Both the position numbers and the translations under genes were made by a program. Source: an uncultured Candidatus Saccharibacteria bacterium (GTDB lineage Bacteria; Patescibacteriota; Minisyncoccia; UBA6257; 2-01-FULL-56-20). Taken from it: DNA of 64,000 bases. The stretch covers positions 201,210 through 265,209 of the forward strand of contig CAYWDX010000001.1 in assembly GCA_964456235.1 (NCBI GenBank), in the 5' to 3' direction. The notes under the pieces were generated by a model that searched no databases, was not told the DNA's origin, and saw only the letters and a list, made by a program, of their open reading frames with translations. Position 1 is the first letter of the stretch. Each line of letters starts with the position of its first letter. Of the stretch, positions 2,931 to 48,104 are shown one piece after another.

Positions 2931-2937
2931 GAAACAT

Positions 2938-25913: not shown

Positions 25914-26010
25914 TGGATATTGAGTTGTTATTTAGTTTTATTTTTCTGACTTTTTTTCTCGTTCTCGCCGACGGGCTTTCCACCGACCAACCATCGCCAC
26001 CGGTCTCACT

Positions 26011-26050
26011 CCTGCGACATGCCCTTTAAAAAAGTCCGCTCACGAGCGGA
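26011..26050 (-). terminator. Rho-independent terminator downstream of yraN
   Basis: GTCCGCTCGTGAGCGGAC followed by TTTTTTAAA on the minus strand. Confidence 0.6.
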
Positions 26051-26104
26051 CTCCACACATGCCATTATTGTACTCGTTTTTTTATTTCTGTCAATTTGCC
26101 GCTA

Positions 26105-26497
26105 TCAAATGTTTTTGTAGTGCCGCATGGCGATCGGATTGCCACTTTCGGATAGATCGACCGCGATGAGGTCGATCCGCCAACCAATCTCATCATCTAT
26201 AAGGTCTTGATTTCGGCGAGCAAAGATTTGGCGGGCAAAGAACTGTGCGGTCCGGTTGAGTTTACGAAGTTTTGCGGCCGATAGGTTGTCTTCGGGTGAA
26301 AAACCTCCTCGTTTTACTAAGGCCTTGACCTCTACGAAGACCAGCACCCTGATCGTGTCAATAGCTACGATATCCACCTCATCCGACCGATTTCTTTGAT
26401 TTCTAGCCAGAATTCTCCACCCTTTTTTTATCAAAAACTGGCATGCGACCTCCTCGCCGATATGCCCATTTCTAGCCGATTTTCTTATGAACTTCAT
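26105..26497 (-). CDS. yraN: YraN-family (UPF0102) endonuclease-like protein
   Basis: GEEVACQFLIKKGWRILARNQRNRSDEVDIVAI...LVFVEVKA matches the YraN consensus. Confidence 0.75.
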   Translation of the reverse strand: MKFIRKSARNGHIGEEVACQFLIKKGWRILARNQRNRSDEVDIVAIDTIRVLVFVEVKALVKRGGFSPEDNLSAAKLRKLNRTAQFFARQIFARRNQDLIDDEIGWRIDLIAVDLSESGNPIAMRHYKNI

Positions 26498-26538
26498 TAA
26501 GTTTTAATTAAAAATTTATTAATTATTCGATAATCTTT

Positions 26539-26652
26539 TTAATTGTGTTTATCGGTAAACACAATTTAAATTCAAATAATTTTAATTATGTTTACCGGTA
26601 AACATATTTTTAATCATTAAATCAATTTTAATTGTGTTTATCGGTAAACACT
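26539..26652. promoter_or_regulatory. Three operator/iteron-like palindromes TGTTTA(Y)CGGTAAACA spaced ~44 bp apart
   Basis: Sites at 26541..26566, 26588..26605 (perfect 18-bp palindrome ATGTTTACCGGTAAACAT) and 26631..26652, in an AT-rich intergenic region between yraN and the dksA-like gene. Confidence 0.6.
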
Positions 26653-31607: not shown

Positions 31608-32387
31608 ATGCCCAATAAATTACTCGGCCAACATTTTTTGAAGAATCCGCACGTGGCGCAAACCATAGTGCGCGCGCTTGACCCACGCGCGGGAGAAATA
31701 ATTTTTGAAATCGGTCCCGGCCATGGCGAACTCACCCTCGCGCTCGCCGAAGCGGCGAAAAATGCCGGCGCGAAAGTCGTCGCGATCGAAAAAGATCCCG
31801 CGCTCGCCGAAACACTTTCCGCGCGTATCGATCCAGACGTCGAAATCATTGCCGGCGATGCCCTCAAAATTTTGGCTGAAGAAATTTCAAAACGTGGCGC
31901 CGAAAATTTTAAAATCGCCGGGAATATTCCTTATTATTTGAGCGGCCACTTGCTGCGCACCATAAGCGAACTTCAGAACAAGCCGTCCCGCGTCATCTTC
32001 ACCGTACAAAAAGAAGTCGCCGAGCGCATCATCGCTGCGCCGGCAAAAATGAATCGGCTCGCCGCGAGTGTGCAGTTCTGGGCGACGCCAAAAATCATCG
32101 GGCGTATTCCAAAAGAGGATTTTGACCCGATGCCTCACGTGGATTCCGCGATTATCTCCCTTGATCGCGCCGAGCCGCGAGCCGCCCAGCCAGAAAAGTA
32201 TTATGAATTGGTTCGCGCAGTCTTTGCCCAGCCGCGGAAGACCATTTTCAACAATATCGCCAGCCATTTCAAGAACTTCACACGCCCCGAAATCGAAAAT
32301 CTGCTTGAAAAATGCGGCATCCAGCCTGGCGCGCGCCCTCAAAACTTATCCGTGAAGGACATCGTCTCGCTAGCCCAGATTTTTTAA
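31608..32387 (+). CDS. rsmA: 16S rRNA (adenine1518/1519-N6)-dimethyltransferase
   Basis: LGQHFL...EIGPGHGELT SAM motif and the typical KsgA length. Confidence 0.85.
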   Translation: MPNKLLGQHFLKNPHVAQTIVRALDPRAGEIIFEIGPGHGELTLALAEAAKNAGAKVVAIEKDPALAETLSARIDPDVEIIAGDALKILAEEISKRGAENFKIAGNIPYYLSGHLLRTISELQNKPSRVIFTVQKEVAERIIAAPAKMNRLAASVQFWATPKIIGRIPKEDFDPMPHVDSAIISLDRAEPRAAQPEKYYELVRAVFAQPRKTIFNNIASHFKNFTRPEIENLLEKCGIQPGARPQNLSVKDIVSLAQIF

Positions 32388-32468: not shown

Positions 32469-34547
32469 ATGATAGATGTGAAGAAGTTTGTCAGCGCCTT
32501 CTTGATTTTGGCCGCCTTGACGGCTTCCGGGGTGCTGCTCGTGAACTTCTCCGGCCGAATGCCGGCCGCTCCGACCGCCGGATCTATCACGCAGAATGGC
32601 TCGGTCCCAACGAATGCCTTCGCCCCTGAAAGCGCCTCTCTCCCGAATGATGCATCCGGGGGTACCGACATTAATGCTGCTATCACCTCTGACCCTAACA
32701 ATCTCACGAATCAACTGGCTGATTCGCTCCTTACGAACGTGATCACGGCGAACCCAAACGGCCCGCAGGACGATGGCAGCGGCGACGGGTTGTTGACACC
32801 ACCCGATCCCAATGCGGTGATTGCCGGCATCGACCCGAATGTTTACCGAAAGGTGACAATCCCTGACTGGGATTTTGAGGCGGCGATGCTTTCAGCTCAC
32901 ACCTCGGTGGCGGCGTCGAATTCTGACATCGCTCATTATGCGTCCGACGTAAGTTCCATCTTGGGCGACGTCAACCGCCAGGCAACCGCATTCGATGCGC
33001 AATCCACCGGCGAAGCCGACCTTGCGGCTTTGCATTCGCAAACTCAAACTTCGATTCAAAAATTGGCGAGTCTTACGATTCCAAAAGATCTTGCGAGCTT
33101 CCACAAGAATCTCGTCAACGTTTTGGTGTATCAAAAGAATGCACTCGCGCTCGTCGAGTCAGCTTCGAACGATCCCTTCAGGGCATCTCTCACGCTCGAA
33201 GCAGAGACGCCGAAATATCAAGTCGCTGCGCAGAAACTTCAGAAGGCCGCACAGGCCGCCGAAGCAAGCGGCGTGCTTTCGCTCCTCCCCAAGGATTCGT
33301 CAAACGGCGAAAATCGTTTATTGGCTGCCGTTCATTCGCTTATCGGCATTCCCACCGCGCACGCATTCATCGTCTTTGACCCAATAGCCGATGCGCAGAC
33401 GACGATCACGGCAACACAGCTCATCCTGCAGATCGTGAAGAGCGCGCTTTTACAGATTCTTAAGAATACTCTGATCACAATCATCCAAAACCGCGTTTTG
33501 GGTTTTATAAAAAATAACGGAAATCCGAAGTTTATTCAGGATTGGGGGCGATATGTTTCGGATGCATTTAACTTAACTGCGGGCGGCGCTCTCGGCCAAA
33601 TCGTTCCTGGTCTTTGCAATAATTTCAGCCCTCAAGTGACGCGGTGGCTTCAAAATTCTTTCCCGGGGGCGAGCATCATTCCTGGCGGAACATCGCTGAA
33701 CGGTGCGGCAGGAACAAACTGCTCCCTCCAAGGCGTAGCCGCGAACCCAAATTTCTATAACAACTTCTCGGCCGCGGGGCCGGACGCAGGATTTCAAGGG
33801 TTTATTTCATTGCTTAGTCCACAGAACAATCCCTTCGGTGCCTTCGCGGAAGCGCACGATGAAATATCCTTCCTTTCGAATGCTGCTGCAGGCGCCACTC
33901 AAAACAAAGCGGTATCTTCTGGTGGGTTTATAGGCCAAGAAATTTGCGGCGACGGATCAACGCCGAGCTCCGTTTTCACCTATTGCCAGGTGGGGCACGT
34001 TAATGCGAACGGGAGTTCCTGCGTGAACAGCAATGGATCAACCGTGGGAACGCCTTTCAGGCAAAGGGGTTGTGCTGATAGTAACCAGCCGTTTGTCACC
34101 GCTCCGGGAAGGACGATCGGCGATACGCTTTCGAATACTCTCGGCGCGAATATACACCTCGTCGTAAACGCTAACGACATTATCGGACTTGCGGCCACGA
34201 TTGGCGCGTCGCTTCTCGAGCAATTTGTAGCAGCTGGCATCCACGGTTTGATCACGACCCAGCCCGCAGGCACGGGTGCTGTTCCGACCACCGCACCGAG
34301 TCTGCCGCCGTTGGCTTGCATCCCAAGCCAACTCATTGCTTCGAGCAGCGATGTACTTGTTCTTAGTAGCACGGGGGGCGATGGCCTCAATTATGATTGG
34401 GTTGCGTTCGGTGGCAATCCTTCGAGCGGATCTGGAGTTTCATTTACAACATCATTTGCCAATCCGGGGACTTATAGCGTGACCGTTACGAACGTCCCGG
34501 CGGGAGCAAGCAGTCAGAGCGCATCCTGCGCCGTCACCATCCAATAA
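32469..34547 (+). CDS. Large secreted/membrane-anchored protein, first gene of the T4SS-like operon
   Basis: N-terminal TM FLILAALTASGVLLVNF, 692 aa with S/T/N/G-rich extracellular domains. Its C-terminal motif PGTYSVTVTN also occurs in the orphan fragment at 16790..16922. Confidence 0.6.
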   Translation: MIDVKKFVSAFLILAALTASGVLLVNFSGRMPAAPTAGSITQNGSVPTNAFAPESASLPNDASGGTDINAAITSDPNNLTNQLADSLLTNVITANPNGPQDDGSGDGLLTPPDPNAVIAGIDPNVYRKVTIPDWDFEAAMLSAHTSVAASNSDIAHYASDVSSILGDVNRQATAFDAQSTGEADLAALHSQTQTSIQKLASLTIPKDLASFHKNLVNVLVYQKNALALVESASNDPFRASLTLEAETPKYQVAAQKLQKAAQAAEASGVLSLLPKDSSNGENRLLAAVHSLIGIPTAHAFIVFDPIADAQTTITATQLILQIVKSALLQILKNTLITIIQNRVLGFIKNNGNPKFIQDWGRYVSDAFNLTAGGALGQIVPGLCNNFSPQVTRWLQNSFPGASIIPGGTSLNGAAGTNCSLQGVAANPNFYNNFSAAGPDAGFQGFISLLSPQNNPFGAFAEAHDEISFLSNAAAGATQNKAVSSGGFIGQEICGDGSTPSSVFTYCQVGHVNANGSSCVNSNGSTVGTPFRQRGCADSNQPFVTAPGRTIGDTLSNTLGANIHLVVNANDIIGLAATIGASLLEQFVAAGIHGLITTQPAGTGAVPTTAPSLPPLACIPSQLIASSSDVLVLSSTGGDGLNYDWVAFGGNPSSGSGVSFTTSFANPGTYSVTVTNVPAGASSQSASCAVTIQ

Positions 34548-34548
34548 C

Positions 34549-36099
34549 ATGCTGAAAAAACGACTGCCATTTATTCTTCTTGCCGGAATGGCGGCGGCGT
34601 TAGCGGCGGCTGCGCCGGCGCACTTCGCGCATGCCAGCTGGTTCGGCCTCGATACCATTGCCGGCGGGGTGATTGGTTATATCGCCTATGGACTTATCTA
34701 TATCATCGCGACCATCGCGGGGGTAGCGATTTCGATTATTACCTATCTCATCAGCATTCTTCTCCAGGTTAGCTCTAACGTCGTGAACACCGCAGCCGTG
34801 CAGGTTGGGTTTTCCGTGATGCTCGCGATCGCGAACCTTGGGTTTGTTCTTTTCATCATCATCATAGCGATCGCCACTATTCTGAAGAGGGAATCGTATG
34901 GAATGAAAAAATCGCTGTGGCGATTGGTCATCGCTGCCATACTCGTGAACTTCAGTCTCGTGATCGGGGGAGCGGTTATAAATTTTGCGAACATCATTAC
35001 CAACCAATTCTTGCAGCAACTTCCCGGCGGTGGAGGCAATAATGGGCCTACAACCTTCGCGCAAGAACTCGCTGGAGCTTTCGCGCCCCAAAAAGGACTT
35101 CTCGTACTTTCGAGCTCCGGGAATAATGTTGCCGGGAACATTGCGGGGTCAAACCTCGGAGACGTGAATGCCGGGAGTACTATCGCAAGCATGATCACCC
35201 CTGTCGTGAGCGTCTCTGCTGCTGCAGCTCTGCTTATCGCAATCATTATTACCCTCGCGGCATTTGCGACCATGTTGCTTATCCGATACGTGTATCTTTC
35301 TATACTCCTCATCGTGATGCCATTCGCTTGGCTCATGTGGGTATTTGAAGGGACGAAGGGACAATTCAAAAAGTGGTGGGATTCTTTCATTCGATGGTCG
35401 TTTTTTGCCCCTATTGTAGTATTTTTCCTTTGGCTTTCGATCGCGACGGCCCAAAAACTAAATACCAACAACAACGACAACCCGATAGGGTTTCTCGCCG
35501 GGACTAGTTATACCGCAAACACGTCGAATCCGATCACCGGGGCTCTCGGTTCAACGTTTGGATCTTTCGTTGCCGCCTTCGCCTCAACGTCGCTCCAAGC
35601 AGTGTTAGTTGTGGGGCTTGCGGTGGGCGGCATGATCGCGGCGAATAAGTTGAGTATCATGGGTGCGAAAAATGCTGTTGGCGCTATGGACGGTGGAGCG
35701 AAAGCTTTTAGAAATTATGTTGTAAAGCGGGGCAAAAGGGGAACGTTAACCGTTGCCCAAAAAACTATGGGTGGCGTAGCTAGGGTTGCAGCGCCTTCTC
35801 CTGGAGCACCGCCAAATGCATGGAATAGATTCCGAGGTAGTGTTGCGACGCGATTTTCTGGAGCCTCTGCTAACTTGGGTCAGGCTGCAACGAGTTCGAA
35901 TCTCAAAACTAAAGGTTTGGCTGCGACGGTCTGGGGTGGCATAAAGCAAGGGTCTGGATTATTTAAGGGCGCGAGCAAGAGCAGTAAGGATTGGGAATGC
36001 CAAGTTTGTCATAATGTTCAAAGAAGTACGATTAAGCCGACGACGGCGTGTCAAAATTGCCACTCTCCTGCCGCTCTAGCTAAATGGACTCAAATATAA
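34549..36099 (+). CDS. VirB6/TrbL-like polytopic membrane protein with C-terminal CxxC...CxxC
   Basis: Signal peptide, then at least 6 hydrophobic helices in the arrangement typical of TrbL/VirB6. C-terminal CQVCHN...CQNCHS. Confidence 0.6.
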   Translation: MLKKRLPFILLAGMAAALAAAAPAHFAHASWFGLDTIAGGVIGYIAYGLIYIIATIAGVAISIITYLISILLQVSSNVVNTAAVQVGFSVMLAIANLGFVLFIIIIAIATILKRESYGMKKSLWRLVIAAILVNFSLVIGGAVINFANIITNQFLQQLPGGGGNNGPTTFAQELAGAFAPQKGLLVLSSSGNNVAGNIAGSNLGDVNAGSTIASMITPVVSVSAAAALLIAIIITLAAFATMLLIRYVYLSILLIVMPFAWLMWVFEGTKGQFKKWWDSFIRWSFFAPIVVFFLWLSIATAQKLNTNNNDNPIGFLAGTSYTANTSNPITGALGSTFGSFVAAFASTSLQAVLVVGLAVGGMIAANKLSIMGAKNAVGAMDGGAKAFRNYVVKRGKRGTLTVAQKTMGGVARVAAPSPGAPPNAWNRFRGSVATRFSGASANLGQAATSSNLKTKGLAATVWGGIKQGSGLFKGASKSSKDWECQVCHNVQRSTIKPTTACQNCHSPAALAKWTQI

Positions 36100-36107
36100 T
36101 TTAGAAC

Positions 36108-37364
36108 ATGATTTTAGTTGATCAGATAACAGAACAAGAATTGGATCGGAGATTCGATAGCCTTTCTATAAAACTAAGAGATGCGCTCACATCGGAGCGA
36201 AATCTAAATATCGTTAGTGATATTTGTGAGAAAAATAAAATTCTCGACAAAGAAAAGGCGGCGGCTATTCACCAAATAATCGGTTTAACGATACTTGGCT
36301 TTGCTCACTATTATGATATCGGTAAAGAAATAAACGAGTCGTTGTCATTAAATAATTCAAAATTTTCTAATGATATCGCTGAAGAAATAAATGCTAAAAT
36401 TTTTTCTCCAATCAAAGATGATTTAGAGAATAATTATCATCCCATCATTAGTGAAGTTGCCAAAACACTAACCCCCGCCAAGATTCTTCAACCTGAAGAA
36501 AAAAAATTGCCGAAAATATTGACTGAAATAGCGACGCCGCAGGCGATCAAGCCGGCGCCGATACCAATATCAATCCCCATTCCCACGCCCACTCCTCCGC
36601 CCAAGCCCGCGGGCGTGCCAGTCCCCATGCCTTCGGTCCTCTCGCAATCGGCCGGCGCGTCGGCCAAGGTTGGGATCGCCCAGGTCACGCCCGATCGCTT
36701 GAAACCCGCGGCGCCTCCACCGCCTGGCTGGTCAAAAGCCCGGTCAGGGGAACCAGTCGTGAAGCTTAGCGGCCCCGTGATGCCCGCGCCTCCGGTCCCG
36801 CCCGGATCCTTAAATAAAATGCCGAGTGGACCAGCGGTGACGGTATCTATCACCCCACCAACGGCGCCTGCCGCACCAAAAATGCCGACGGCATCATCAG
36901 CGCCGATCGCGAAGCCATCCGAACCGGCGCCGATTCTGATCCACGAAGATGCATCGCTGCGGCCGCAGCAAAAAATTCCTGACTTCCATTTCCCGATCAC
37001 TCCGGACACGACAAAAAAAGAGTCAACTGCGCCGCCGCTCAAGCCCGCGATCCTCGAGCTTGGTAAAAATGCTCCGAGCGGTATGGCGAACACTGCGGCG
37101 CTAAAGCCGAGCACCGTTGCCTCGACCCGCGTCGTCCATTACACCGAATATAAATCGCCGACGCCGGAGACGCCGATCAAACCGGTAGCGCCGCAGGGGC
37201 CGCGGCAGGTGACAGAACTCACCATGCAAAAGCCGGCGCCGCGAACGATGCCCGCTGCAGCGACACCGCCGAAACCTCCGCTCAACCCGTCGCTGCCGCC
37301 GGGGCCGCCAAGTCCTTCGAGCTCGCCGCCCGTTCCGCCAGGACTGCCGCCGCAAAAGAAATAG
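36108..37364 (+). CDS. Proline-rich protein with an AT-richer N-terminal domain
   Basis: ~140-aa N-terminal domain followed by ~270 aa rich in P/A/S/K (PxP, PPPP runs). Confidence 0.5.
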   Translation: MILVDQITEQELDRRFDSLSIKLRDALTSERNLNIVSDICEKNKILDKEKAAAIHQIIGLTILGFAHYYDIGKEINESLSLNNSKFSNDIAEEINAKIFSPIKDDLENNYHPIISEVAKTLTPAKILQPEEKKLPKILTEIATPQAIKPAPIPISIPIPTPTPPPKPAGVPVPMPSVLSQSAGASAKVGIAQVTPDRLKPAAPPPPGWSKARSGEPVVKLSGPVMPAPPVPPGSLNKMPSGPAVTVSITPPTAPAAPKMPTASSAPIAKPSEPAPILIHEDASLRPQQKIPDFHFPITPDTTKKESTAPPLKPAILELGKNAPSGMANTAALKPSTVASTRVVHYTEYKSPTPETPIKPVAPQGPRQVTELTMQKPAPRTMPAAATPPKPPLNPSLPPGPPSPSSSPPVPPGLPPQKK

Positions 37365-37380
37365 CCCAGGGAGCAATATA

Positions 37381-37406
37381 GATGACCGGCCCTTCGGCCG
37401 GTCATC
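37381..37406 (+). other. Perfect 11-bp stem hairpin (GATGACCGGCC ttcg GGCCGGTCATC) inside the operon
   Basis: Read from the sequence; no T-run follows. Lies between the Pro-rich gene and the prgI-like gene. Confidence 0.6.
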
Positions 37407-37422
37407 AGTTATAATAGAGGTG

Positions 37423-37920
37423 ATGCAATATCAAGTGCCGCAATTTATCGAGACCGAAGACAAGATCGTGGGCCCCCTTACGCTCCGCCAGTTTATTTAT
37501 GTGGGCATTGGCGCCCTGCTTTCCGCCCTCCTTTATTTCATGGTCCAGACGTGGCTCTGGCTGATTCTCTCTATATTTATAGTAGGAATTGCTGTGGGGG
37601 TTGCTTTTGTGAAGGTTGAGGGCCGGGCGCTCGGCAATGTTATTCTTTCGGCGGCAAGCTTCTATTGGAACCCCCAGACCTACGTTTGGCAGGCGGCGCA
37701 TGCTGCAAAGGCTCCGAAATCCCAGGGAGACTCGGGGTTTGTTGCATCTCTCCAGAAGATCGCGGAGGGCGCGGCGCTTCGCAAGCACTGGGAAAGCCTG
37801 CAGACGGGGGAAAAGATGTCGGCTGAAAAGTTTGCCGAAAAGAAAATGAATGAGCGTTACGCTATCTTTCGCACGATCATGGGCGATCGTGAAGCGGCGC
37901 GGCGAGTGGATTACCGGTAA
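37423..37920 (+). CDS. PrgI-family (VirB3-like) small membrane protein
   Basis: MQYQVPQFIETEDKIVGPLTLRQFIYV followed by two TM helices, the typical PrgI-family N-terminus, located immediately upstream of virB4. Confidence 0.65.
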   Translation: MQYQVPQFIETEDKIVGPLTLRQFIYVGIGALLSALLYFMVQTWLWLILSIFIVGIAVGVAFVKVEGRALGNVILSAASFYWNPQTYVWQAAHAAKAPKSQGDSGFVASLQKIAEGAALRKHWESLQTGEKMSAEKFAEKKMNERYAIFRTIMGDREAARRVDYR

Positions 37921-37941
37921 AAATCGTGGGAAAATAAATAC

Positions 37942-38619
37942 ATGGCCACGAACCAAGCGGCGGGTAATTCATTGGATCTCGTGAACATTAAGGAGATCCG
38001 CGACAATACCATCATCCTTAAAGACGGTGGGATGAAGCAGATCGTGATGGTGGGCGGCGTGAATTTTGCTTTGAAATCCGAGGAGGAGCAGAACCTCATG
38101 GTGCAGGGATACCAAACGTTTCTGAACGGCATCGATTTCCCGCTCCAAGTCGTGGTGCACTCGCGCAAAGTGAATGTCGATAAATATATCGAGACGCTTC
38201 TCGAGCGCAAACAATCCGAGGAGTCGCCGCTCCTGCGCAACCAGATCGACGAATACGTGGAATTCGTGAAGGGGTTTGTCGAAAAAAATGCGATCATGGA
38301 AAAAAGTTTTCTCGTGGTCGTGCCATTTTACCCGACGATGGGTTTGCCGAGCGGATCATCGCTTACAAGATTCCTTCCGTTCGGGAAAAAATCGAAACCG
38401 GATGATGCCGCGAAGAAGAGCGCTGAAGAAAACGAGCGCGCGTTCAAAGAAAATTTGGCCCAGCTTGGCCAGCGCGTGACGCAGGTCGTGAACGGGCTTC
38501 TCGTCGTCGGCCTCGAGGCGACCGCGCTCGAAAACGATGCGCTCGTCGAGCTCCTCTATAACTTTTACAATCCCCAGACGGTCGAGCGAAAAGAAATTGC
38601 CGTGCCCAACGAACATTGA
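37942..38619 (+). CDS. virB4: VirB4/TraC-family ATPase, N-terminal domain (split gene or frameshift)
   Basis: 225 aa. Stop TGA at 38617..38619 overlaps the TTG/ATG start of the ATPase part in the -1 frame. Confidence 0.55.
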   Translation: MATNQAAGNSLDLVNIKEIRDNTIILKDGGMKQIVMVGGVNFALKSEEEQNLMVQGYQTFLNGIDFPLQVVVHSRKVNVDKYIETLLERKQSEESPLLRNQIDEYVEFVKGFVEKNAIMEKSFLVVVPFYPTMGLPSGSSLTRFLPFGKKSKPDDAAKKSAEENERAFKENLAQLGQRVTQVVNGLLVVGLEATALENDALVELLYNFYNPQTVERKEIAVPNEH

Positions 38620-40373
38620 TCTCGCGGAACATGCCTCCCGAACAAAAACCTGACAACTTCGACAAGATCAAGCAGATCATCGCACCGGCGGGGGCGCAGG
38701 TTTTCCCGAGCTATTTAAAAATTGGCGACAAACTCGCGAAAACGTTTTTCGTGTTTTCGTATCCGCGCTATCTCGCGACCGGATGGTTCGAGCCGCTCAT
38801 TAATCTGCCGAATTTGTTTGATGTTTCCATTTTCGTAAACCCGATCGACACGGGCACCGCGCTTAAAAATCTCCGCAAAAAAGCGGGCCAGCTCGAGTCG
38901 CAAATCATGGACGACCAGGAGAAGGGTTTGGTCCGCGACCCGATGCTTGAAACGGCGGTCAAGGATGTCGAAAATTTGCGCGACTCACTTCAGCAGTCGG
39001 AGGAGAAACTTTTTGACACCGGCGTTTACATCACGATTTACGCCGACAACGAAGAAGACCTCGCGCGCCTCGAGAGCAAACTCGTCACCATGATGGAGGC
39101 GAAGCTCATCTATTTGAAACCTGCGCTCTTTGAACAGTTGGAAGGGCTTTCGTCCATTTTGCCGCTCGGCGAGGACAAGCTACAGGTCTACACGCCGATG
39201 AACACCTCGCCGATCTCGTCATTCTTCCCGTTCGTTTCTGAAGATCTTTCCTCGAACCAGGGGATTATGTATGGCATCAACCTCCACAACAATAATTTGG
39301 TAATTTTCGATCGCTTCTCCCTCGAGAATGCAAACCAGGTAGTGTTCGCAAAGTCCGGCGCCGGGAAATCGTACACCACGAAACTGGAGATCATCCGCTC
39401 GCTCATGATGGGCGTCGACATGGTGCTCGTGATCGATCCGGAAAATGAATATGAGCGTCTTGCAAAAACATTCGGCGGGAGTATGTTCAATATTTCCCTT
39501 TCGTCGCACGAGCACATTAATCCGTTCGACCTCCCGCTCATCCCGGAAGGCGAAACGCCGTCCGATGTTTTGCGCTCGCATATCGTGACGATCACGTCGC
39601 TCATTAAATTGATGCTCGGCAAGGTGACGCCGGAGGAAGACGCGATCCTCGATCGCGCGATTACCGAAACCTACGCCTCGCGTGACATCGTGGTTGACGG
39701 CGACTTCGCCGGGAAAGAGCCGCCACTCTTGAGCGACCTTGAAACCGTGCTCCGCAATTTGGAGGGAGGCCGCGAGATGGCGGAAAAGCTTTACAAATAC
39801 ACCTCTGGCAGCTTCTCGGGCTTTTTGAACCAGTCCACGAATATCGACATCAACAATCGGCTGATCGTGTTTTCGATCCGCGATCTTGAAGAAGAACTGC
39901 GTCCGATCGGCATGTTTGTAGTACTGAACTTTATCTGGTCACTCATCCGCGCGAAACTCGCGAAGCGCCTGCTCTTCATTGATGAGGCGTGGATCATGAT
40001 GAAAAACGATGACAGCGCCACATTCTTGTTCGGCCTTGTGAAGCGCGCCCGCAAATATTTTTTGGGCGTTTCGACGATCACCCAAGACGTCGAAGATTTC
40101 TTACGGTCGCCCTACGGCCGCCCGATCATTACAAACTCCTCATTGCAGCTGTTGCTCAAGCAGGCGCCGGCGACGATCGATATCGTTGCAAAAGCGTTCG
40201 AGCTCACCGAGGCGGAAAAAAATTTTCTTTTGAGCGCCGAGGTGGGCACGGGAATTTTCTTTGCCGGCAAACGCCACGTCGCGATCCAAATTGTTCCGTC
40301 CTATTTCGAAGATCAGGTAATCACGACGAACCCCGAACAACTCCTTGCTGAAAAAGAGGGCCGGCTTAAATAA
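38616..40373 (+). CDS. virB4: VirB4/TraC/TrsE-family ATPase, C-terminal ATPase domain
   Basis: Walker A FAKSGAGKSYTT and Walker B LLFIDEAW. TTG at 38616 or ATG at 38631. Confidence 0.8.
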   Translation: MISRNMPPEQKPDNFDKIKQIIAPAGAQVFPSYLKIGDKLAKTFFVFSYPRYLATGWFEPLINLPNLFDVSIFVNPIDTGTALKNLRKKAGQLESQIMDDQEKGLVRDPMLETAVKDVENLRDSLQQSEEKLFDTGVYITIYADNEEDLARLESKLVTMMEAKLIYLKPALFEQLEGLSSILPLGEDKLQVYTPMNTSPISSFFPFVSEDLSSNQGIMYGINLHNNNLVIFDRFSLENANQVVFAKSGAGKSYTTKLEIIRSLMMGVDMVLVIDPENEYERLAKTFGGSMFNISLSSHEHINPFDLPLIPEGETPSDVLRSHIVTITSLIKLMLGKVTPEEDAILDRAITETYASRDIVVDGDFAGKEPPLLSDLETVLRNLEGGREMAEKLYKYTSGSFSGFLNQSTNIDINNRLIVFSIRDLEEELRPIGMFVVLNFIWSLIRAKLAKRLLFIDEAWIMMKNDDSATFLFGLVKRARKYFLGVSTITQDVEDFLRSPYGRPIITNSSLQLLLKQAPATIDIVAKAFELTEAEKNFLLSAEVGTGIFFAGKRHVAIQIVPSYFEDQVITTNPEQLLAEKEGRLK

Positions 40374-40378
40374 CCCGC

Positions 40379-41086
40379 ATGAACGAGGAGCTCGAAGCGG
40401 CTGAAATTGAGGGTGCGGTCGCGCCCGAGCCGAAAATTTCTCTGGTTGTCGGCGTACTCGGGGTAATCATCGCCATCGTCCTCGATGTTATCGGCCTCAT
40501 ACCATTTGTCGACGACGTTGAAGAGCTACCCGCGGGGATGGTTTTAATATTGAGCAGTATTTTCGGCTTGAGCAATGTCGTCTTGATGGTGCAAGCGGTA
40601 GCCATGGTTTTGAAAGCGATTCCGATCATCCAAGAGGTCCCATTTTGGACCATCGCGTGGTGTGTCACCTGGTATATCGAAGCTCATCCTTCCAAGCTCA
40701 CGGCGATTGCAGAGCGGGCTGCGTCGGTTGCCGGTGCGGTGGAGGGGAACGTGGGAGGGCTTGAAGAAGCAGGGGCGGCTGGCGCGGCCGAGGCGGCAGG
40801 TGCGGCAAAGACTGCTGCTGGGGCTGCGGCGGGGACCGCCGCCGAAGCCGCGGTTACTGCAGAAAGTGGGGCAGCAGAGGCCGGTGAACAATCTGCAGAA
40901 CGAGCTCGCCAAGCCAAGCCCCGTGAAGAAATTGAGCATGAAATGCGGAGTGGCGAGGAAATCCCGCCCGATGAGCGGCTTAAAGAAGAATTATTCAACC
41001 CGAGCGACGTTAATTTCCGCCAGGCACGCGACATTGAGGCGGGTCCAGAAGATGAAGACGAACCCGACGAGGAAAAGGCCGCGTAA
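40379..41086 (+). CDS. Hypothetical membrane protein with Ala-rich repeat and acidic C-terminus
   Basis: Three predicted TM helices, then (A/G/E/T)-rich low complexity and a DEDEPDEE tail. Confidence 0.5.
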   Translation: MNEELEAAEIEGAVAPEPKISLVVGVLGVIIAIVLDVIGLIPFVDDVEELPAGMVLILSSIFGLSNVVLMVQAVAMVLKAIPIIQEVPFWTIAWCVTWYIEAHPSKLTAIAERAASVAGAVEGNVGGLEEAGAAGAAEAAGAAKTAAGAAAGTAAEAAVTAESGAAEAGEQSAERARQAKPREEIEHEMRSGEEIPPDERLKEELFNPSDVNFRQARDIEAGPEDEDEPDEEKAA

Positions 41087-41104
41087 AGTTGTATAATAAA
41101 GGTA

Positions 41105-41812
41105 ATGAAGGCGCGTGTTCTCGGCACTTTTGCGCTGGCTGCCGTGTTTTTTATAAGCGGCGCGTTTGCGATGCCGGCGAGCGTCGAAGCGGTTGCCGGT
41201 CCGCAGGTTTATATTACTTGGCGCACCCTCGACGGCGTGGCGCCGGCGGGATACGCGGGGAAAATCCTTCCAAAAATTGGCTCGCAGGTGGCCGCATCAG
41301 TTGAAGTGCTCACCGCGAGTGGCCGCGTTGCCGATTTGCACAACCAAACTATTTATTGGTATTTGGATAACAGTTTTTTGGATGGCGGAACGGGAAAACA
41401 AACCATAACGTTCGGCGCGCCGGGTCATAACGAAATCATGTCGCTTCGCGCGGACATCCCGGGTTACCCGGGCGGGGAGTTAATCATGACGGCGCACATT
41501 CGCATGGTAAATCCAGAAGTCGTGATCGTCGCTCCCTACGCAAGCGGAATTTTTTCAGGAGATTCGGTTGCCGTGAAAGGCGTGCCGTATTTCTTTTCGA
41601 CCTCTCAATTGAATAGTCTTGTCTACGCGTGGTCGGTGAACGGCCAAACGGTGGCCGCGCAGGAAAATCCGCTCGACCTCGTCGTTAATTTGACCAATGG
41701 GACCGTGGCTGGATATTCTCTCGGAATCAATTTCTCGGCGCGGGTGAGCGGCGACCCGCTAACCAGCGCCTCGCAGAACATCACCCTCGCGAAAGCCGGC
41801 GCATCACAATGA
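41105..41812 (+). CDS. Hypothetical secreted protein
   Basis: Signal peptide MKARVLGTFALAAVFFISGAFA. Confidence 0.5.
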   Translation: MKARVLGTFALAAVFFISGAFAMPASVEAVAGPQVYITWRTLDGVAPAGYAGKILPKIGSQVAASVEVLTASGRVADLHNQTIYWYLDNSFLDGGTGKQTITFGAPGHNEIMSLRADIPGYPGGELIMTAHIRMVNPEVVIVAPYASGIFSGDSVAVKGVPYFFSTSQLNSLVYAWSVNGQTVAAQENPLDLVVNLTNGTVAGYSLGINFSARVSGDPLTSASQNITLAKAGASQ

Positions 41813-42363
41813 TTTTTTTATCAAAGGCGCTCGCGGCCGGCGTTAACATCAACCCCGACATCCCCGGCCTCACCCCCTCGACCAGCATCTCGGGCCTCAT
41901 CCAGAACTTCTACAGCTTTGCCCTCTTGATAGCCGGGGTCCTTGCCGTTGGCGCCATTGTGTATGGGGGGATGCGCTATGCCGTAGGGCATGGAAATCCC
42001 TCGTCTGAGAGTGAAGGAAAGAGCTGGATCGTCGGGGCCCTCTTGGGCCTCCTCCTCCTTGCCTCTGCCTATGTGATCCTCCATACCATCAACCCCGAGA
42101 TCACGAAGCTCTCGATCCCTGGTCTCCCCCCGCTTGACGCTGCCCCTACGGGGGAGGGGTTGGGGGGAGGGGCCCCGAGTAATATTTACACTTCTTCGCA
42201 CTCAAGCGATCCCGCGTGCCAGCAGCGTCAGGCAGGAACGTGCGTTTGGCTCCCGAATCGAGCGATGTCTTCCACATGCAGCGGCTATCAAAGTGTTTGG
42301 CCGGATGACCACTGTAACGATCCGCCCCCGCACCAGCAATGCGAGATATTTCATCAATGTTAA
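41809..42363 (+). CDS. VirB2/TrbC-like pilin candidate with Cys-rich C-terminal extension
   Basis: Leader plus two hydrophobic helices (GLIQNFYSFALLIAGVLAVGAIVYGG ... WIVGALLGLLLLASAYVILHTINP) in VirB2-type topology, then a 70-aa tail with 6 Cys. ATGA overlap with the upstream gene. Confidence 0.5.
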   Translation: MIFLSKALAAGVNINPDIPGLTPSTSISGLIQNFYSFALLIAGVLAVGAIVYGGMRYAVGHGNPSSESEGKSWIVGALLGLLLLASAYVILHTINPEITKLSIPGLPPLDAAPTGEGLGGGAPSNIYTSSHSSDPACQQRQAGTCVWLPNRAMSSTCSGYQSVWPDDHCNDPPPHQQCEIFHQC

Positions 42364-42372
42364 AATAAATCC

Positions 42373-43632
42373 ATGAGGCGCCTCTATATTATTCTCGCGA
42401 TCTTTGTGGTGATTATTCTTGGTGCGGTCAGTTATTTAGTTTTCTTCCGCGGATCAACTCAGCCAGGAACGGGGACGGCTCCAACCGGAAGCACTGGTTC
42501 GTTGCCTTCGGCTGGTGGCGCGGGCGGGGGCGCTGGCACGGGCGGGAACGGCGGGGCTGGTTCGCAAACGGGCAGTGGCGCGGGGGCGGGCAATCTTCCT
42601 GCGGCGGGCGGCGTGCAAGGGAGCACGAGCTTTGGCGTTGTGAGCGACCAGCCTGCGATTGATTATTTTGTTGATGTAAAAAATAACGTGACGATTATTG
42701 CGCCCAATGGCGAGATCAAATCGGTGGCTGGCGGGACAACGAAATCTCTGAACGCCGCAGGCGCGGAGAATATTTTGGCTTCCGGTTTCGCCTACAACGG
42801 AACGAAATTATTAGTAAATTTTGGCGACCGAACCAACCCGCAAACGAGCGTTTTTGACGTCTCCTCGACCGCCTGGACGCCGCTCGGCCTCGGCATCATC
42901 TCGCCGGTTTGGTCGCCAAGCGACATGCGGATCGCGTATCTCAAAAATAATTCTGATGGATCGGCAACGCTCTCCACGCTTGACCTTTCAAAAGCAACCA
43001 ACAAACCAGTCGCGCTGGTTACGGTGCATGCAGAAGACGTCACGCTCGCCTGGCCAAATAAAAATCAGATTATGTTGAGCGACAAGGGAAGCGCGTATGA
43101 AGAAGGTTCACCCCTCGTCTATGATCTCGTGCAAAAAACCCTGCTGCGTCCGATGGCGGCCGTTCACGGCTTTGCCGCAATTTGGAGCAATACGACGAAT
43201 ACTGCCGCGCTCACATTTTCGAGCGGGGCTGCGGCGCGTGGCGGCGACTTATCTCTCTGGACGAATAATCTTTCCTCATCCGAAAGCCTGACCATCCTCA
43301 CGCTCCCATCCAAGTGTGTATTTAATAGTGTGGTTGGGGTTGCTTCGGCCGGGACTTCGACGCCGGCTGCCGCGCCGTATCTTGCCCTGTATTGCGCAAT
43401 CCCACAAAACGCTTCTGCGCTCTCAAGCGCCGTATTGCCGGATGACTATAATCAGCAGGCGCTTTTCACCGTTGATTCGCTTTATAAAATCCGGACCGAC
43501 AACGGCGACGTTCAGACGCTGCTCACCCCCGCGCAGGCAGTTGATGCCACCAACCTCAAGGTTTTTGGGAAAACCCTCTTCTTTATTAACCGGTACGACA
43601 ATAAGGTCTACGCGCTCTCGCTCGGCGCCTAA
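42373..43632 (+). CDS. Hypothetical secreted protein (Gly-rich linker + probable beta-rich domain)
   Basis: N-terminal TM/signal, GAGGGAGTGGNGGAGSQTGSGAGAG linker, 300-aa C-terminal domain. Confidence 0.5.
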   Translation: MRRLYIILAIFVVIILGAVSYLVFFRGSTQPGTGTAPTGSTGSLPSAGGAGGGAGTGGNGGAGSQTGSGAGAGNLPAAGGVQGSTSFGVVSDQPAIDYFVDVKNNVTIIAPNGEIKSVAGGTTKSLNAAGAENILASGFAYNGTKLLVNFGDRTNPQTSVFDVSSTAWTPLGLGIISPVWSPSDMRIAYLKNNSDGSATLSTLDLSKATNKPVALVTVHAEDVTLAWPNKNQIMLSDKGSAYEEGSPLVYDLVQKTLLRPMAAVHGFAAIWSNTTNTAALTFSSGAAARGGDLSLWTNNLSSSESLTILTLPSKCVFNSVVGVASAGTSTPAAAPYLALYCAIPQNASALSSAVLPDDYNQQALFTVDSLYKIRTDNGDVQTLLTPAQAVDATNLKVFGKTLFFINRYDNKVYALSLGA

Positions 43633-45401: not shown

Positions 45402-45518
45402 TGATCGGATAGTACCACAACAATAAAATTTGCGCCAGGGATTTTTGTCATGGTAGAAATGGTTATACACACGTCGTCCACAGAAGGAAACGATTTGACT
45501 CTTTCATCGGGCGAGCGT

Positions 45519-46901
45519 ATGAGTAATAATGAATCAATAAAAAATATGGATCTCGACCAACTTTGGCAATCGACCCTAGGAGAGATGGAGATCCACCTCA
45601 CGAAGGCAAACTTTTCAATGTGGCTGAAGGGAAGCCGCCCCGTGAACCGCGATGAGGGTACTTTGTTCATCGCTCTCCCCAGCGTTTTTGCAAAAAACTG
45701 GGTGGAAAATAAATACCAGAAGAATATTTTGGGAGTTTTGCGGAATTTGGACAGTTCGGTGAAGAAGGTTGAGTATGTCATCAACCCGAAGGAGCGTCCG
45801 GCAGAAAAAGTTGCCGTCGACGTGAAAGAGCTGAACAAAGCAGAGGCTGCGGCAGAGCTGGAATTCAATCAAACGAATCCCGAAACAAATCTCAACCCGC
45901 GCTATACCTTTTCAACGTTTGTCGTCGGACCGTCGAATGAGCTCGCGTATGCCGCCGCAAAAGCGATCACGGAAAAAATCGGGAAATACAATCCATTCTA
46001 TGTGTACGGCGGCGTCGGGTTGGGGAAGACTCATTTGATCCAGGCGATCGGGAATGAAATTTATGAAAAATATGGCAAGAAAATCCGGCCAAAATATGTT
46101 CCCTCCGAACAATTCACGCGCGAGGTGGTGTGGGGTCTCCGCAATGACCGCATCGAGAGCGTAAAAAAGAAATATCGCGACGCCGACGTCCTTATTGTCG
46201 ACGACATCCAGTTTATTGGCGGCAAAGAGAAAACCGAAGAGGAATTTTTCCATACTTTTAACGCCCTCTACGAGGGGAACAAGCAGATCATCATCTCCTC
46301 TGACCGCCCACCCCAGTCCATCCCGACATTAGAAGCCCGCCTCCGGTCGCGATTTGAGGGCGGTTTTGTTGCAGATGTGGGCTATCCGGAGTACGAAATG
46401 CGCGTGGCGATTGTCCGCAGCAAGCTGATGGAATCCCAGCGCGAGCTCTCGGAAGATGTTGTTGATTTGATCGCCCGGCGCCTCCGGAAGAATATTCGTG
46501 AGCTTGAGGGGGTCCTTAAGAAGCTCCTCTTTCTCCAGGAGCAGCGGAAAGTCCAGATCACGGCAGACGCGGCGGAGGAGATTATTGAAAAGCTTACCCA
46601 GAACGGCGCGCGGCGCGTGAGCGATTCGCAGATTTTGAAGGCGGTCGCCGACTATTTCAACGTCTCACTCGAAGACCTCGTGAGCCATAACCGCCGCAAA
46701 GAAGTGGTTGAGCCGCGGCAGATCGCCATGTACTTACTTCGGGAAATCTCCGAGCTTTCATACCCATATATTGGGGAAAAAATGGGGAGGGACCACACCA
46801 CCGCGATCCACTCCTATGAAAAAATTAACCAGGAGATTAACAGGAATTCAACACTAAACCAAAAGATATTAACAATTAAGGATTTGATTTATAAAAGCTA
46901 G
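45519..46901 (+). CDS. dnaA: Chromosomal replication initiator protein DnaA
   Basis: AAA+ Walker A GGVGLGKTHL and C-terminal DNA-binding domain (RQIAMYLLRE...HTT). Start uncertain; alternatives are GTG 45450 and ATG 45546. Confidence 0.9.
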   Translation: MSNNESIKNMDLDQLWQSTLGEMEIHLTKANFSMWLKGSRPVNRDEGTLFIALPSVFAKNWVENKYQKNILGVLRNLDSSVKKVEYVINPKERPAEKVAVDVKELNKAEAAAELEFNQTNPETNLNPRYTFSTFVVGPSNELAYAAAKAITEKIGKYNPFYVYGGVGLGKTHLIQAIGNEIYEKYGKKIRPKYVPSEQFTREVVWGLRNDRIESVKKKYRDADVLIVDDIQFIGGKEKTEEEFFHTFNALYEGNKQIIISSDRPPQSIPTLEARLRSRFEGGFVADVGYPEYEMRVAIVRSKLMESQRELSEDVVDLIARRLRKNIRELEGVLKKLLFLQEQRKVQITADAAEEIIEKLTQNGARRVSDSQILKAVADYFNVSLEDLVSHNRRKEVVEPRQIAMYLLREISELSYPYIGEKMGRDHTTAIHSYEKINQEINRNSTLNQKILTIKDLIYKS

Positions 46902-46991: not shown

Positions 46992-48104
46992 ATGAAATTC
47001 GTCGCGATCCAATCAAACATCAAAGAAGCGATCAGTGTGATTGATCGCGCCGCCGGAGAAAATATTAACCTCCCCATTCTTAAGAATGTTTTAATAAAAA
47101 TTGAAAACAACCAGATTTTGTTTACCGCGACGAACCTTGAGGTCGCCGTGACTAGTAAGGTTTCGGGGAAGATCATCGAGGACGGGAAGATCACGGTTCC
47201 GCTGGGCACCCTTTCTAACCTCATCAGCAACATCCAGAGTGACCGCTTGAATTTTGGGAAGAAGGGGAACGCGCTTGAGATAAAAACCGACAATTACAGC
47301 GCCACCCTCCAGGGCCTCCCCGCCGAGGACTTCCCGGTCACGCCCGAGATCAAATCACCAAAAGGAAAAATTGAAATTAAGGGCGCTATTTTGAAAGAGG
47401 CGCTTCGCGAGACCATGGTGGCCTCGCAACTTTCTGAACTGCGTCCGGAATTAAATGCGGTGTTGTTTGATTTCACCATCGACAGCCTCAAGTTTGCCGC
47501 GACCGACGGGTTCCGTCTTGCCGAAAAAATGATTCCGCAAAATCTTTTTACCGCGAGCCACGAAGAACCCTTCCGCATCCTCGTCCCACTGAAGACAACC
47601 CAAGAAGTTCAGCGGATGGCGAAAGACGACGAGGCGATAACCATCCTTCATGACGAAAACCAAATCGTGTTTAAAACCGAACGCGTGGAATTAATTTCTC
47701 GGCTCACCGAGGGCGCATTCCCCGATTACTCGGCGCTCATCCCGAAAGAATTTTCGGCCGAGGTGATGGTTGATCGGGAAGAATTCGCGAATGCGATCCG
47801 GCTTGCGGGAATTTTCGGGCAAAAGAACAGCGAGGTGAAGATCGCCATCAATCCGTCGAAGAAAACGATGGAGGTGAGTTCGGCAGACCAGGCGCTTGGC
47901 GAGAACGCGTATTTACTCCCGGCAAAAATTAAGGGGGCGGCTGCGGAAACCTATTTCAATTGGCGTTATTTGGCAGACCCCATCAAAGTGGCTGGGAGCA
48001 GCGAACTTTTTATTGGGTTTCAAGAAGAAGCGAACCCGGCGCTCATCCGGGCGGTCAATGACAGCTCCTATTTCTATATTTTGAAGCCGATTTTGAAGTC
48101 CTAA
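46992..48104 (+). CDS. dnaN: DNA polymerase III beta sliding clamp
   Basis: 370 aa with three-domain beta-clamp pattern, immediately downstream of dnaA. Confidence 0.9.
   Translation: MKFVAIQSNIKEAISVIDRAAGENINLPILKNVLIKIENNQILFTATNLEVAVTSKVSGKIIEDGKITVPLGTLSNLISNIQSDRLNFGKKGNALEIKTDNYSATLQGLPAEDFPVTPEIKSPKGKIEIKGAILKEALRETMVASQLSELRPELNAVLFDFTIDSLKFAATDGFRLAEKMIPQNLFTASHEEPFRILVPLKTTQEVQRMAKDDEAITILHDENQIVFKTERVELISRLTEGAFPDYSALIPKEFSAEVMVDREEFANAIRLAGIFGQKNSEVKIAINPSKKTMEVSSADQALGENAYLLPAKIKGAAAETYFNWRYLADPIKVAGSSELFIGFQEEANPALIRAVNDSSYFYILKPILKS

What the first reader, a model, noticed from the sequence alone, without database searches (positions are those of the whole stretch)
37942..40373. 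VirB4 ATPase split into an N-terminal domain ORF and an ATPase ORF in the -1 frame
ORF 37942..38619 ends with TGA overlapping a TTG (or ATG 12 nt later) that begins the Walker A/B-containing ORF 38616..40373. Together they make up an ~810-aa VirB4. This could be a genuine two-polypeptide VirB4, a programmed frameshift, or an inactivating mutation/sequencing error.
Basis: seen in the sequence. Interest (0 to 1): 0.5.

Follow-up and report, generated by a model that had tools for sequence, protein, structure and literature searches.

The report
Conserved two-gene (TrsD-like + core) VirB4
The secretion-system motor VirB4 in this candidate-phyla-radiation bacterium is really encoded as two adjacent genes, but this is the normal, conserved and already published arrangement for the group, not a frameshift, an error or a dead gene.

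Summary
ORF1 (37942..38619, 225 aa) ends in a TGA. ORF2 follows in the -1 frame and carries the Walker A and B motifs. Its conserved start is ATG 38631 (580 aa), not TTG 38616.

The split is real and conserved:
- The best 120 homologues of each half are stand-alone proteins of about 225 aa and about 580 aa.
- Of 78 related Paceibacteria-type genome loci, 72 are split at the same linker. All three relative frames occur (33/20/19), including in-frame stop-then-ATG cases. This excludes a programmed frameshift or an indel.
- Six loci carry a colinear fused gene of about 790 aa.
- Both halves are under purifying selection.
- An independent assembly has an identical junction.

A 2025 paper already reports TrsD homologues next to virB4 as the most abundant T4SS component in Patescibacteria, and pGO1 has the same trsD-trsE pair. 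Verdict: genuine two-polypeptide VirB4, already known, low interest. Whether the fused forms are ancestral or re-fusions is unresolved.

The parts
37423..37920 (+). PrgI/VirB3-like small membrane protein gene, immediately upstream of ORF1. It is the presumed membrane partner of the VirB4 N-terminal module.
   Evidence: Pfam PF12666 PrgI, E 4.3e-10, 40.4 bits against a cut-off of 27. The gene is called as 165 aa with PF12666 in the independent assembly L082.
37942..38619 (+). ORF1: TrsD-like protein of 225 aa, equivalent to the first roughly 180-225 residues (first half of the N-terminal domain) of a canonical VirB4.
38551..38574 (+). Conserved motif LLYNFYNP that closes the folded part of ORF1. 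Everything downstream of it, up to the stop, is variable linker.
   Evidence: Y209, N210 and P211 are nearly invariant in the 75-sequence alignment A1. The junction alignment is and the coordinates come.
38575..38678 (+). Junction: a variable interdomain linker holding the ORF1 stop (TGA 38617-38619), an 11-nt spacer and the ORF2 start (ATG 38631-38633). In the fused relatives the equivalent stretch is a short continuous linker.
   Evidence: No X_XXY_YYZ slippery heptamer is visible in the 58-nt stretch where both frames are open (38562-38619), by my reading of the sequence. The sequence is identical in Logan contig L082.
38631..40373 (+). ORF2: VirB4 core protein of 580 aa, made of the second half of the N-terminal domain plus the RecA-like ATPase domain.
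   Evidence: NF045971 (CD1110-family VirB4), 402 bits against a cut-off of 325, profile positions 186-734 of 752. Pfam P-loop_TraG, AAA_10 and DUF87. The best 120 homologues are all 567-596 aa. 24% identity, E 4e-36, to pGO1 TrsE with the N-termini in register. dN/dS is about 0.04-0.06.
38631..39260 (+). ORF2 residues 1-210: the part of the VirB4 N-terminal domain that remained attached to the ATPase.
   Evidence: This region lies N-terminal of the stretch aligned to the VirB4 C-terminal-domain crystal structure 4AG5. It is covered by the NF045971 and TIGR02746 alignments and by a weak Pfam TraC_F_IV hit, residues 87-184 of the 585-aa reading from TTG 38616. The conserved IAPxxxE and YLKIGDK motifs are at 38679-38732.
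39261..40325 (+). ORF2 residues 211-565: RecA-like VirB4 C-terminal ATPase domain.
   Evidence: phmmer against PDB 4AG5/4AG6 (Thermoanaerobacter VirB4 C-terminal domain), E 5.6e-40, query residues 211-565.
39357..39371 (+). Walker A motif, GAGKS.
   Evidence: Located. It lies inside the DUF87 and AAA_10 matches.
39969..39992 (+). Walker B region, LLFIDEAW.
   Evidence: Located.
41809..42363 (+). T4SS pilin (VirB2-like) gene of the same tightly packed operon, listed for context.
   Evidence: Pfam PF18895 T4SS_pilin, E 4e-10.

Best explanation
This is a genuine, evolutionarily conserved two-gene VirB4, not a frameshift or a broken gene. ORF1 is the TrsD-like protein of monoderm-type T4SSs. It corresponds to the first half of the VirB4 N-terminal domain. 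ORF2 carries the second half of that domain plus the Walker A/B ATPase domain.

Shown: the two genes sit in a compact T4SS operon, directly after a PrgI/VirB3-like gene, and are separated by 11 nt.

Inferred: they are co-transcribed, and ORF2 is translated from its own ATG (38631) right after termination of ORF1, giving roughly matched amounts of the two proteins. The two polypeptides then associate non-covalently to rebuild a VirB4-like protomer. The ORF1 module provides the membrane-proximal surface that docks to the VirB3-like protein and mediates protomer contacts, as the N-terminal domain does in the R388 system. The ORF2 ATPase domain forms the hexameric motor that powers assembly and secretion.
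For: Conservation of the split:
- The best 120 ORF1 homologues are 215-253 aa and the best 120 ORF2 homologues are 567-596 aa.
- Of the 150 best representatives of 50%-identity clusters hit by ORF1, only one is about 797 aa.
- Of the 78 genome loci that hold both parts, 72 are split, and the two parts are always colinear on the same strand. The other three loci are cut off upstream, so their state is unknown. The median spacer is about 3-4 nt. The relative frames are 33, 20 and 19, and there is an ATG in every case.

Complementarity:
- ORF1 covers the N-terminal positions of VirB4 models and ORF2 covers positions 186-734 of 752.
- Six loci have a single colinear ORF of about 790 aa. The junction falls in a variable linker between two conserved motifs.

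Selection: dN/dS is about 0.12-0.14 for ORF1 and 0.04-0.06 for ORF2.

Sequence accuracy: the junction is identical in an independent assembly.

Precedent:
- pGO1 has trsD (227 aa) followed after 14 nt by trsE (672 aa), both homologous to the window pair and broken at the same place.
- The literature reports TrsD homologues as the most abundant T4SS component of Patescibacteria. 1664 of 2272 lie next to virB4. TrsD has remote homology to the VirB4 N-terminus and is essential in Ca. S. epibionticum ML1 (PMC12102498).

Role of the N-terminal domain in R388: VirB3 wraps around it, VirB8 tails bind it, and it mediates dimerisation (PMC9259494).
Against: - No direct evidence of physical association between ORF1 and ORF2 or PrgI. 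I could not model the complex or read contacts.
- The match to the curated TrsD model is far below its cut-off (28.6 against 200 bits), and hhalign gives only 77% probability.
- The Foldseek E-values are modest (about 2e-3) with TM-score 0.44.
- Translational coupling is inferred from spacing only. Shine-Dalgarno motifs are rare throughout this window (7 of 49 ORFs), so the lack of one before ORF2 says nothing.
- A few loci have spacers of 100-490 nt, so tight coupling is not obligatory.
Confidence: 0.88

Rival explanations
1. ORF1 is an independent accessory T4SS protein (TrsD). It descends from a VirB4 N-terminus but no longer acts as part of the VirB4 protomer, serving instead as, for example, an assembly factor, regulator or chaperone-like adaptor.
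Against: ORF2 lacks exactly the region that ORF1 supplies. Natural fused proteins within the same clade join them colinearly through a short linker. The two parts are colinear, either as neighbouring genes or as one fused ORF, in all 78 loci with enough upstream sequence. The whole ORF1 fold aligns best with TrwK (164 residues), while the chaperones align over only about 90 residues.
Confidence: 0.08
2. Programmed -1 ribosomal frameshifting near 38562-38619 produces a full-length VirB4 of about 805 aa, with or without the separate products.
For: In this window ORF2 is in the -1 frame, and its frame is open for 58 nt before the ORF1 stop.
Against: Orthologues have the two genes in all three relative frames (33/20/19). 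In the 20 in-frame cases they are separated by a real stop codon. Spacers range from an 8-nt overlap to more than 100 nt. No X_XXY_YYZ heptamer is visible in the overlap (sequence). A conserved ATG with a conserved N-terminus follows the stop in every split locus.
Confidence: 0.02
3. The split is an inactivating frameshift mutation (pseudogene) or a sequencing or assembly error in this genome.
For: Canonical VirB4 proteins of Firmicutes and Proteobacteria are single chains of about 750-830 aa (profile lengths).
Against: The split is shared by 72 of 78 species-level relatives and by more than a thousand database proteins. Both halves show dN/dS far below 1. An independent Logan assembly of run SRR12313479 has the identical junction. 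The public annotation calls both genes (P0001, P0121).
Confidence: 0.01

Closest known systems
TrsD + VirB4 gene pair of the Patescibacteria T4SS (Quinonero-Coronel et al. 2025, Microb Genom, PMC12102498; system shown essential in Ca. Southlakia epibionticum ML1, Wang et al. 2023, PMC10633639)
   Same: The components and order match: a PrgI/VirB3-like gene, a TrsD-like gene, virB4 and VirB2-like pilins. The chromosomal setting beside ksgA, dnaA and dnaN is also the same. The window is simply one more Paceibacteria-type example.
   Different: Nothing substantive. The paper treats TrsD as a separate component with remote homology to the VirB4 N-terminus and no assigned function. Here the complementarity, the variable junction and the naturally fused versions are shown explicitly.
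TrsD-TrsE of Staphylococcus aureus plasmid pGO1 (the TrsD/TraD family, NCBIfam NF041427)
   Same: A protein of about 227 aa is encoded 14 nt upstream of an N-terminally short VirB4-like ATPase and after a small protein gene. ORF1 aligns with TrsD end to end. ORF2 aligns with TrsE with the N-termini in register. The break is therefore at the same place.
   Different: The relationship is very distant: 19% and 24% identity, and the curated TrsD cut-off is not reached. pGO1 is a conjugative plasmid with a relaxase and a coupling protein, whereas the window system is chromosomal and lies next to oriC.
Canonical single-chain VirB4 (TrwK of R388, PDB 7O42 and 8RTB; CD1110-family VirB4 of Firmicutes ICEs)
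   Different: Here the first roughly 225 residues are a separate polypeptide. The break lies inside what is called the N-terminal domain of TrwK (residues 15-400), not between the N- and C-terminal domains.
VirB3-VirB4 fusion proteins of some conjugative systems
   Same: They show that the boundaries between VirB3, the VirB4 N-terminal module and the ATPase are evolutionarily movable.
   Different: The direction is opposite: fusion rather than fission. The 2025 paper reports no such fusion, and I did not look for VirB3-VirB4 fusions. Among ORF1 homologues with extra N-terminal sequence, none had a PrgI match.

Membership tests
VirB4 family T4SS ATPase | P-loop (Walker A/B) C-terminal domain homologous to the VirB4 C-terminal domain | tested here: met
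   ORF2 scores 402 bits against NF045971, cut-off 325. PDB 4AG5, E 5.6e-40. GAGKS and LLFIDEAW are located.
VirB4 family T4SS ATPase | VirB4 N-terminal domain present and colinear with the ATPase domain | tested here: met
   The feature is met by the pair of ORFs, not by one chain. ORF1 maps to TIGR00929 positions 10-179 and NF045971 positions 6-101. ORF2 maps to NF045971 positions 186-734. Fused relatives are colinear. TrwK is the top fold hit for ORF1.
VirB4 family T4SS ATPase | Single polypeptide of about 750-830 aa | tested here: not met
   There is a stop at 38617-38619, and the split is conserved in 72 of 78 relatives.
VirB4 family T4SS ATPase | ATP hydrolysis and hexameric assembly at the inner-membrane complex | not testable with these tools
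   This needs biochemistry or cryo-EM.
TrsD/TraD family conjugative transfer protein (NCBIfam NF041427) | Match to the curated family model at or above its cut-off | tested here: not met
   28.6 bits, E 1.1e-6, against a cut-off of 200. Homology is remote.
TrsD/TraD family conjugative transfer protein (NCBIfam NF041427) | Full-length homology to prototype TrsD of pGO1 | tested here: inconclusive
   hhalign of the ORF1 family profile against TrsD gives probability 77.5%, E 1.9e-5, 175 columns spanning 7-205 against 32-217, at 19% identity.
TrsD/TraD family conjugative transfer protein (NCBIfam NF041427) | Protein of about 200-230 aa encoded directly upstream of an N-terminally short VirB4-like ATPase | tested here: met
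   In the window, 225 aa and an 11-nt spacer. In pGO1, 227 aa and a 14-nt spacer.
Patescibacteria-clade T4SS (nested in MPF_FATA; PMC12102498) | Gene set of VirB4, TrsD, PrgI/VirB3 and VirB2-like pilin in one cluster | tested here: met
   VirB6 was not identified here (no Pfam hit for the candidate ORFs).
Patescibacteria-clade T4SS (nested in MPF_FATA; PMC12102498) | Location near the replication origin (dnaA, dnaN, ksgA) | tested here: met
   KsgA at 31608-32387, DnaA at 45450-46901 and DnaN at 46992-48104.
Patescibacteria-clade T4SS (nested in MPF_FATA; PMC12102498) | VirB4 falls in the monophyletic Patescibacteria clade of the VirB4 tree | not tested
   All 80 closest genome loci are Patescibacteria MAGs, but no tree with the eight MPF classes was built.
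Programmed -1 ribosomal frameshift gene | Slippery heptamer, and a frame relation conserved among orthologues with no independent start for the downstream frame | tested here: not met
   Frames are 33/20/19, there are in-frame stops, and an ATG is present in all split loci. No heptamer is visible in the overlap.
Frameshift pseudogene or assembly error | Orthologues intact as a single ORF, relaxed selection, and a junction not reproducible | tested here: not met

The most novel reading that the evidence does not exclude
The break in VirB4 may be an ancient, reversible fission shared by the pGO1 subclass and the whole Patescibacteria T4SS clade, with several independent re-fusions. The six fused loci are never monophyletic in the bootstrap trees. 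On this reading the detached module, whose first half has a fold like type III secretion chaperones, would have been kept separate because it allows regulated or sub-stoichiometric docking of the ATPase to the VirB3-like membrane protein, or substrate handling, in a T4SS that is essential for the epibiotic lifestyle.
Probability: 0.15. Interest if true: 0.45.

Novelty: already known. Interest (0 to 1): 0.2.

Why it matters
For annotation, this pair should not be flagged as a pseudogene, a frameshift or an assembly error. The 225-aa 'hypothetical protein' should be named as the TrsD-like VirB4 N-terminal module.

For biology, it matters only modestly. The Patescibacteria T4SS is reported to be essential for epibiotic growth. 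Its motor is built from two chains, with the break inside the domain that contacts VirB3 and VirB8 in the R388 structure. The naturally fused relatives offer a ready-made design for testing whether separation is functionally important. None of this opens a new question, because the gene pair and the homology of TrsD to the VirB4 N-terminus are already published.

Tried and rejected
- Sequence searches of ORF1, alone and as a 75-sequence profile, against PDB chains found nothing relevant. Only fold comparison linked it to TrwK.
- The local Pfam copy has no model that hits ORF1. The precomputed hit PF26593 'TraC-like' comes from a newer release.
- I suspected that ORF1 homologues of 300-370 aa with an offset match were VirB3(PrgI)-TrsD fusions. 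No PrgI hit was found. Most extensions are Pro/Gln-rich low-complexity sequence, and one (P0383) has two hydrophobic helices.
- I tried to decide whether the fused forms are ancestral or re-fusions. A BLOSUM62 NJ tree nests them among split forms. Bootstrapped Kimura-distance NJ trees rooted on pGO1 TrsE are unstable. The five-member fused clade was recovered in 11 of 100 replicates, all-fused monophyly in 0 of 100, and L018 was pulled to the base in 57 of 60. Fitch reconstruction of the ingroup root was ambiguous in 53 of 60. Polarity is left unresolved. Parsimony favours a split ancestor only because the outgroup is itself split.
- Absence of a Shine-Dalgarno motif before ORF2 cannot be used as evidence for coupling, because such motifs are rare in the whole window (7 of 49).
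- The promoter and terminator scan gave nothing interpretable at the junction.
- The main text of Guglielmini et al. 2014 does not spell out the TrsD-VirB4 homology. That statement rests on the 2025 paper's citation of it.
- TraD of pELF plasmids (PMC13492992) is a VirD4-type ATPase and is unrelated.
Full report
**Observation.** ORF1 runs 37942..38619 (ATG start, 225 aa) and ends in TGA at 38617-38619. A TTG at 38616 overlaps that stop, and an in-frame ATG lies at 38631. This second reading frame runs to 40373 and is in the -1 frame relative to ORF1. Walker A (GAGKS, 39357-39371) and Walker B (LLFIDEAW, 39969-39992) lie in ORF2. The start of ORF2 is almost certainly ATG 38631. The public annotation of this very sequence is a 580-aa protein (P0121; gene call in L082). 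Orthologues begin at the equivalent ATG with a similar MP... N-terminus.

**What the two ORFs are.** ORF2 is a VirB4-type ATPase.
- It scores 402 bits against NCBIfam NF045971 (VirB4-like, CD1110 family), above the cut-off of 325.
- It aligns only to profile positions 186-734 of 752.
- Its residues 211-565 match the crystal structure of a VirB4 C-terminal domain (4AG5, E 5.6e-40).

ORF2 therefore lacks the first ~185 positions of the CD1110-family VirB4 model (and ~250-260 of the TIGR00929 and TraC models). ORF1 supplies them.
- It hits the N-terminal parts of several full-length VirB4 models: TIGR00929 positions 10-179, NF045971 positions 6-101 and NF045975 positions 101-208.
- It also hits the TrsD/TraD family model NF041427, E 1.1e-6, well below that model's cut-off.
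- An AlphaFold2 model of ORF1, built on a 75-sequence alignment, is confident (pLDDT 88, pTM 0.78).
- The top 14 Foldseek PDB hits are all TrwK chains.

**Is the split real?** Three lines of evidence say yes.

First, it is conserved.
- The best 120 homologues of ORF1 are all 215-253 aa, at 61-72% identity.
- The best 120 homologues of ORF2 are all 567-596 aa, at 81-91% identity.
- In an exhaustive search of 1.84 billion cluster representatives, ORF1 has 1920 hits. Only one of the best 150 is a protein of about 797 aa.

Second, the junction varies in a way that rules out the alternatives. I fetched 80 species-level genome loci, all Patescibacteria MAGs, and analysed the junction in each.
- Three loci are truncated upstream. 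All of the other 78 contain an ORF1 homologue directly before the ATPase.
- 72 loci are split and 6 have one continuous ORF of about 790 aa.
- Among the split loci, the downstream gene is in frame +1, 0 or +2 relative to the upstream gene in 33, 20 and 19 cases.
- The 20 in-frame cases are separated by a genuine TAA, TAG or TGA.
- Each split locus has an ATG within a few nucleotides. The median spacer is about 3-4 nt, and 55 of 72 spacers lie between -8 and +12 nt.

A conserved programmed frameshift cannot give this pattern, and neither can a lineage-specific indel.

Third, both genes evolve under purifying selection. dN/dS is about 0.12-0.14 for ORF1 and 0.04-0.06 for ORF2, against relatives whose synonymous sites are nearly saturated. 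An independent Logan assembly of run SRR12313479 has the identical junction sequence.

**Where the break lies.** I aligned ORF1+ORF2 of several split loci with the six fused proteins. The stop and start fall in a short, variable linker between two conserved motifs. The upstream motif is ...ELFYNFYNP..EK at the end of ORF1, and the downstream motif is IAPxxxE....YLKIGDK at the start of ORF2. In the fused proteins a continuous stretch of about 10-12 residues bridges the same gap. In R388 TrwK the N-terminal domain is residues 15-400 and the C-terminal domain is 400-823 (PMC9259494). The break at about residue 225 is therefore inside the classical N-terminal domain, not between the two domains.

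**Known precedent.** Plasmid pGO1 of Staphylococcus aureus has trsD (227 aa, 25886-26569) followed 14 nt later by the VirB4-like trsE (672 aa), after a small protein gene. The ORF1 family profile aligns with TrsD over essentially its full length (hhalign probability 77.5%, E 1.9e-5). ORF2 aligns with TrsE at 24% identity, E 4e-36, with the N-termini in register (residue 27 against 48). The break is at the same place.

Quinonero-Coronel et al. (2025) make the following points (PMC12102498):
- TrsD was the most abundant T4SS component in 3035 Patescibacteria genomes, with 2272 homologues, of which 1664 lie next to virB4.
- TrsD is otherwise known only from the pGO1 subclass of MPF_FATA.
- TrsD has no assigned function.
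- Its homologue in Ca. S. epibionticum ML1 is essential.

The same paper notes that in Paceibacteria the T4SS sits near dnaA, dnaN and ksgA. The window shows exactly this: KsgA at 31608-32387, DnaA at 45450-46901 and DnaN at 46992-48104. It also has a PrgI/VirB3-like gene at 37423-37920 and a T4SS pilin gene at 41809-42363. The finding is therefore one more instance of a published arrangement.

**How it most likely works.**
- Shown: gene order, tight spacing, complementarity of the two halves, fold, and conservation.
- Inferred: the genes are co-transcribed and ORF2 is translated from its own ATG just after ORF1 terminates. The two chains then associate to rebuild a VirB4-like protomer. The ORF1 module provides the membrane-proximal surface.
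[quoted passage not shown] VirB8 tails bind the N-terminal domain of the outer VirB4. The dimer interface is made entirely by N-terminal domains.
- Limit on the coupling argument: Shine-Dalgarno motifs are rare in the whole window (7 of 49 ORFs). Spacing is the only argument for coupling, and a few relatives have spacers of 100-490 nt.

**Fused relatives.** The six fused loci (L015, L016, L018, L028, L029, L031) never form one clade (0 of 100 bootstraps), so more than one fission or fusion event occurred. A BLOSUM62 NJ tree nests them among split forms. Rooting on the very distant pGO1 TrsE is unstable, however, and parsimony on the ingroup alone is ambiguous. Because the outgroup and, according to the literature, most Patescibacteria classes are split, re-fusion is the more economical reading. 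I regard the direction as unresolved.

**Verdict.** This is a real, functional, conserved two-polypeptide VirB4: a TrsD-like N-terminal module plus the core ATPase. The frameshift, pseudogene and error readings are rejected. The arrangement is already known, so interest is low. The residual value is correct annotation and the naturally fused variants as experimental guides.

Noticed in passing
[not shown]
   Followed up: no
proteins P0353, P0356, P0371, P0388, P0303, P0367, P0383 (homologues of window 37942-38619): Some TrsD-like proteins carry Pro/Gln-rich low-complexity extensions of 80-200 residues at the N- or C-terminus. One (P0383) has two hydrophobic helices in front of the domain. None has a PrgI Pfam match, so they are not evident VirB3 fusions.
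   Followed up: partly
L050 about 2690-3007; L020, L044, L062 upstream of position 6001: These loci have atypical junctions. In L050 the ORF1 frame has no stop near the junction and runs about 317 nt into the ATPase gene. In L020, L044 and L062 the two genes are 250-490 nt apart, and the L020 spacer contains tandem 'agcagcatct' repeats.
   Followed up: no
window, all ORFs of at least 150 aa: A Shine-Dalgarno-like motif occurs upstream of only 7 of 49 long ORFs. Genes of the T4SS cluster are packed with spacers of 1-55 nt or 4-nt overlaps (34547/34549, 36099/36108, 37920/37942, 38619/38631, 40373/40379, 41812/41809).
   Followed up: partly
window 31608-32387, 45450-46901, 46992-48104: ksgA, dnaA and dnaN flank the T4SS cluster. 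The cluster therefore lies beside the probable replication origin, as published for Paceibacteria (PMC12102498).
   Followed up: partly
window 32469-37364 and 40379-41812, 42373-43632: Several large ORFs of the same operon have no or only marginal family matches. These are a 692-aa protein with a weak PKD hit, a 516-aa protein, a 418-aa very proline-rich protein, a 235-aa Ala/Glu-rich membrane protein, a 235-aa secreted-looking protein and a 419-aa protein. Candidates for VirB6, VirB8 or adhesin-like components were not identified.
   Followed up: no
window 36488-37114 (-), 37405-37956 (-), 37911-38297 (-) and others: Long antisense ORFs overlap the T4SS genes. They look like by-products of the G+C-rich, proline- and alanine-rich coding strand rather than genes.
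   Followed up: no
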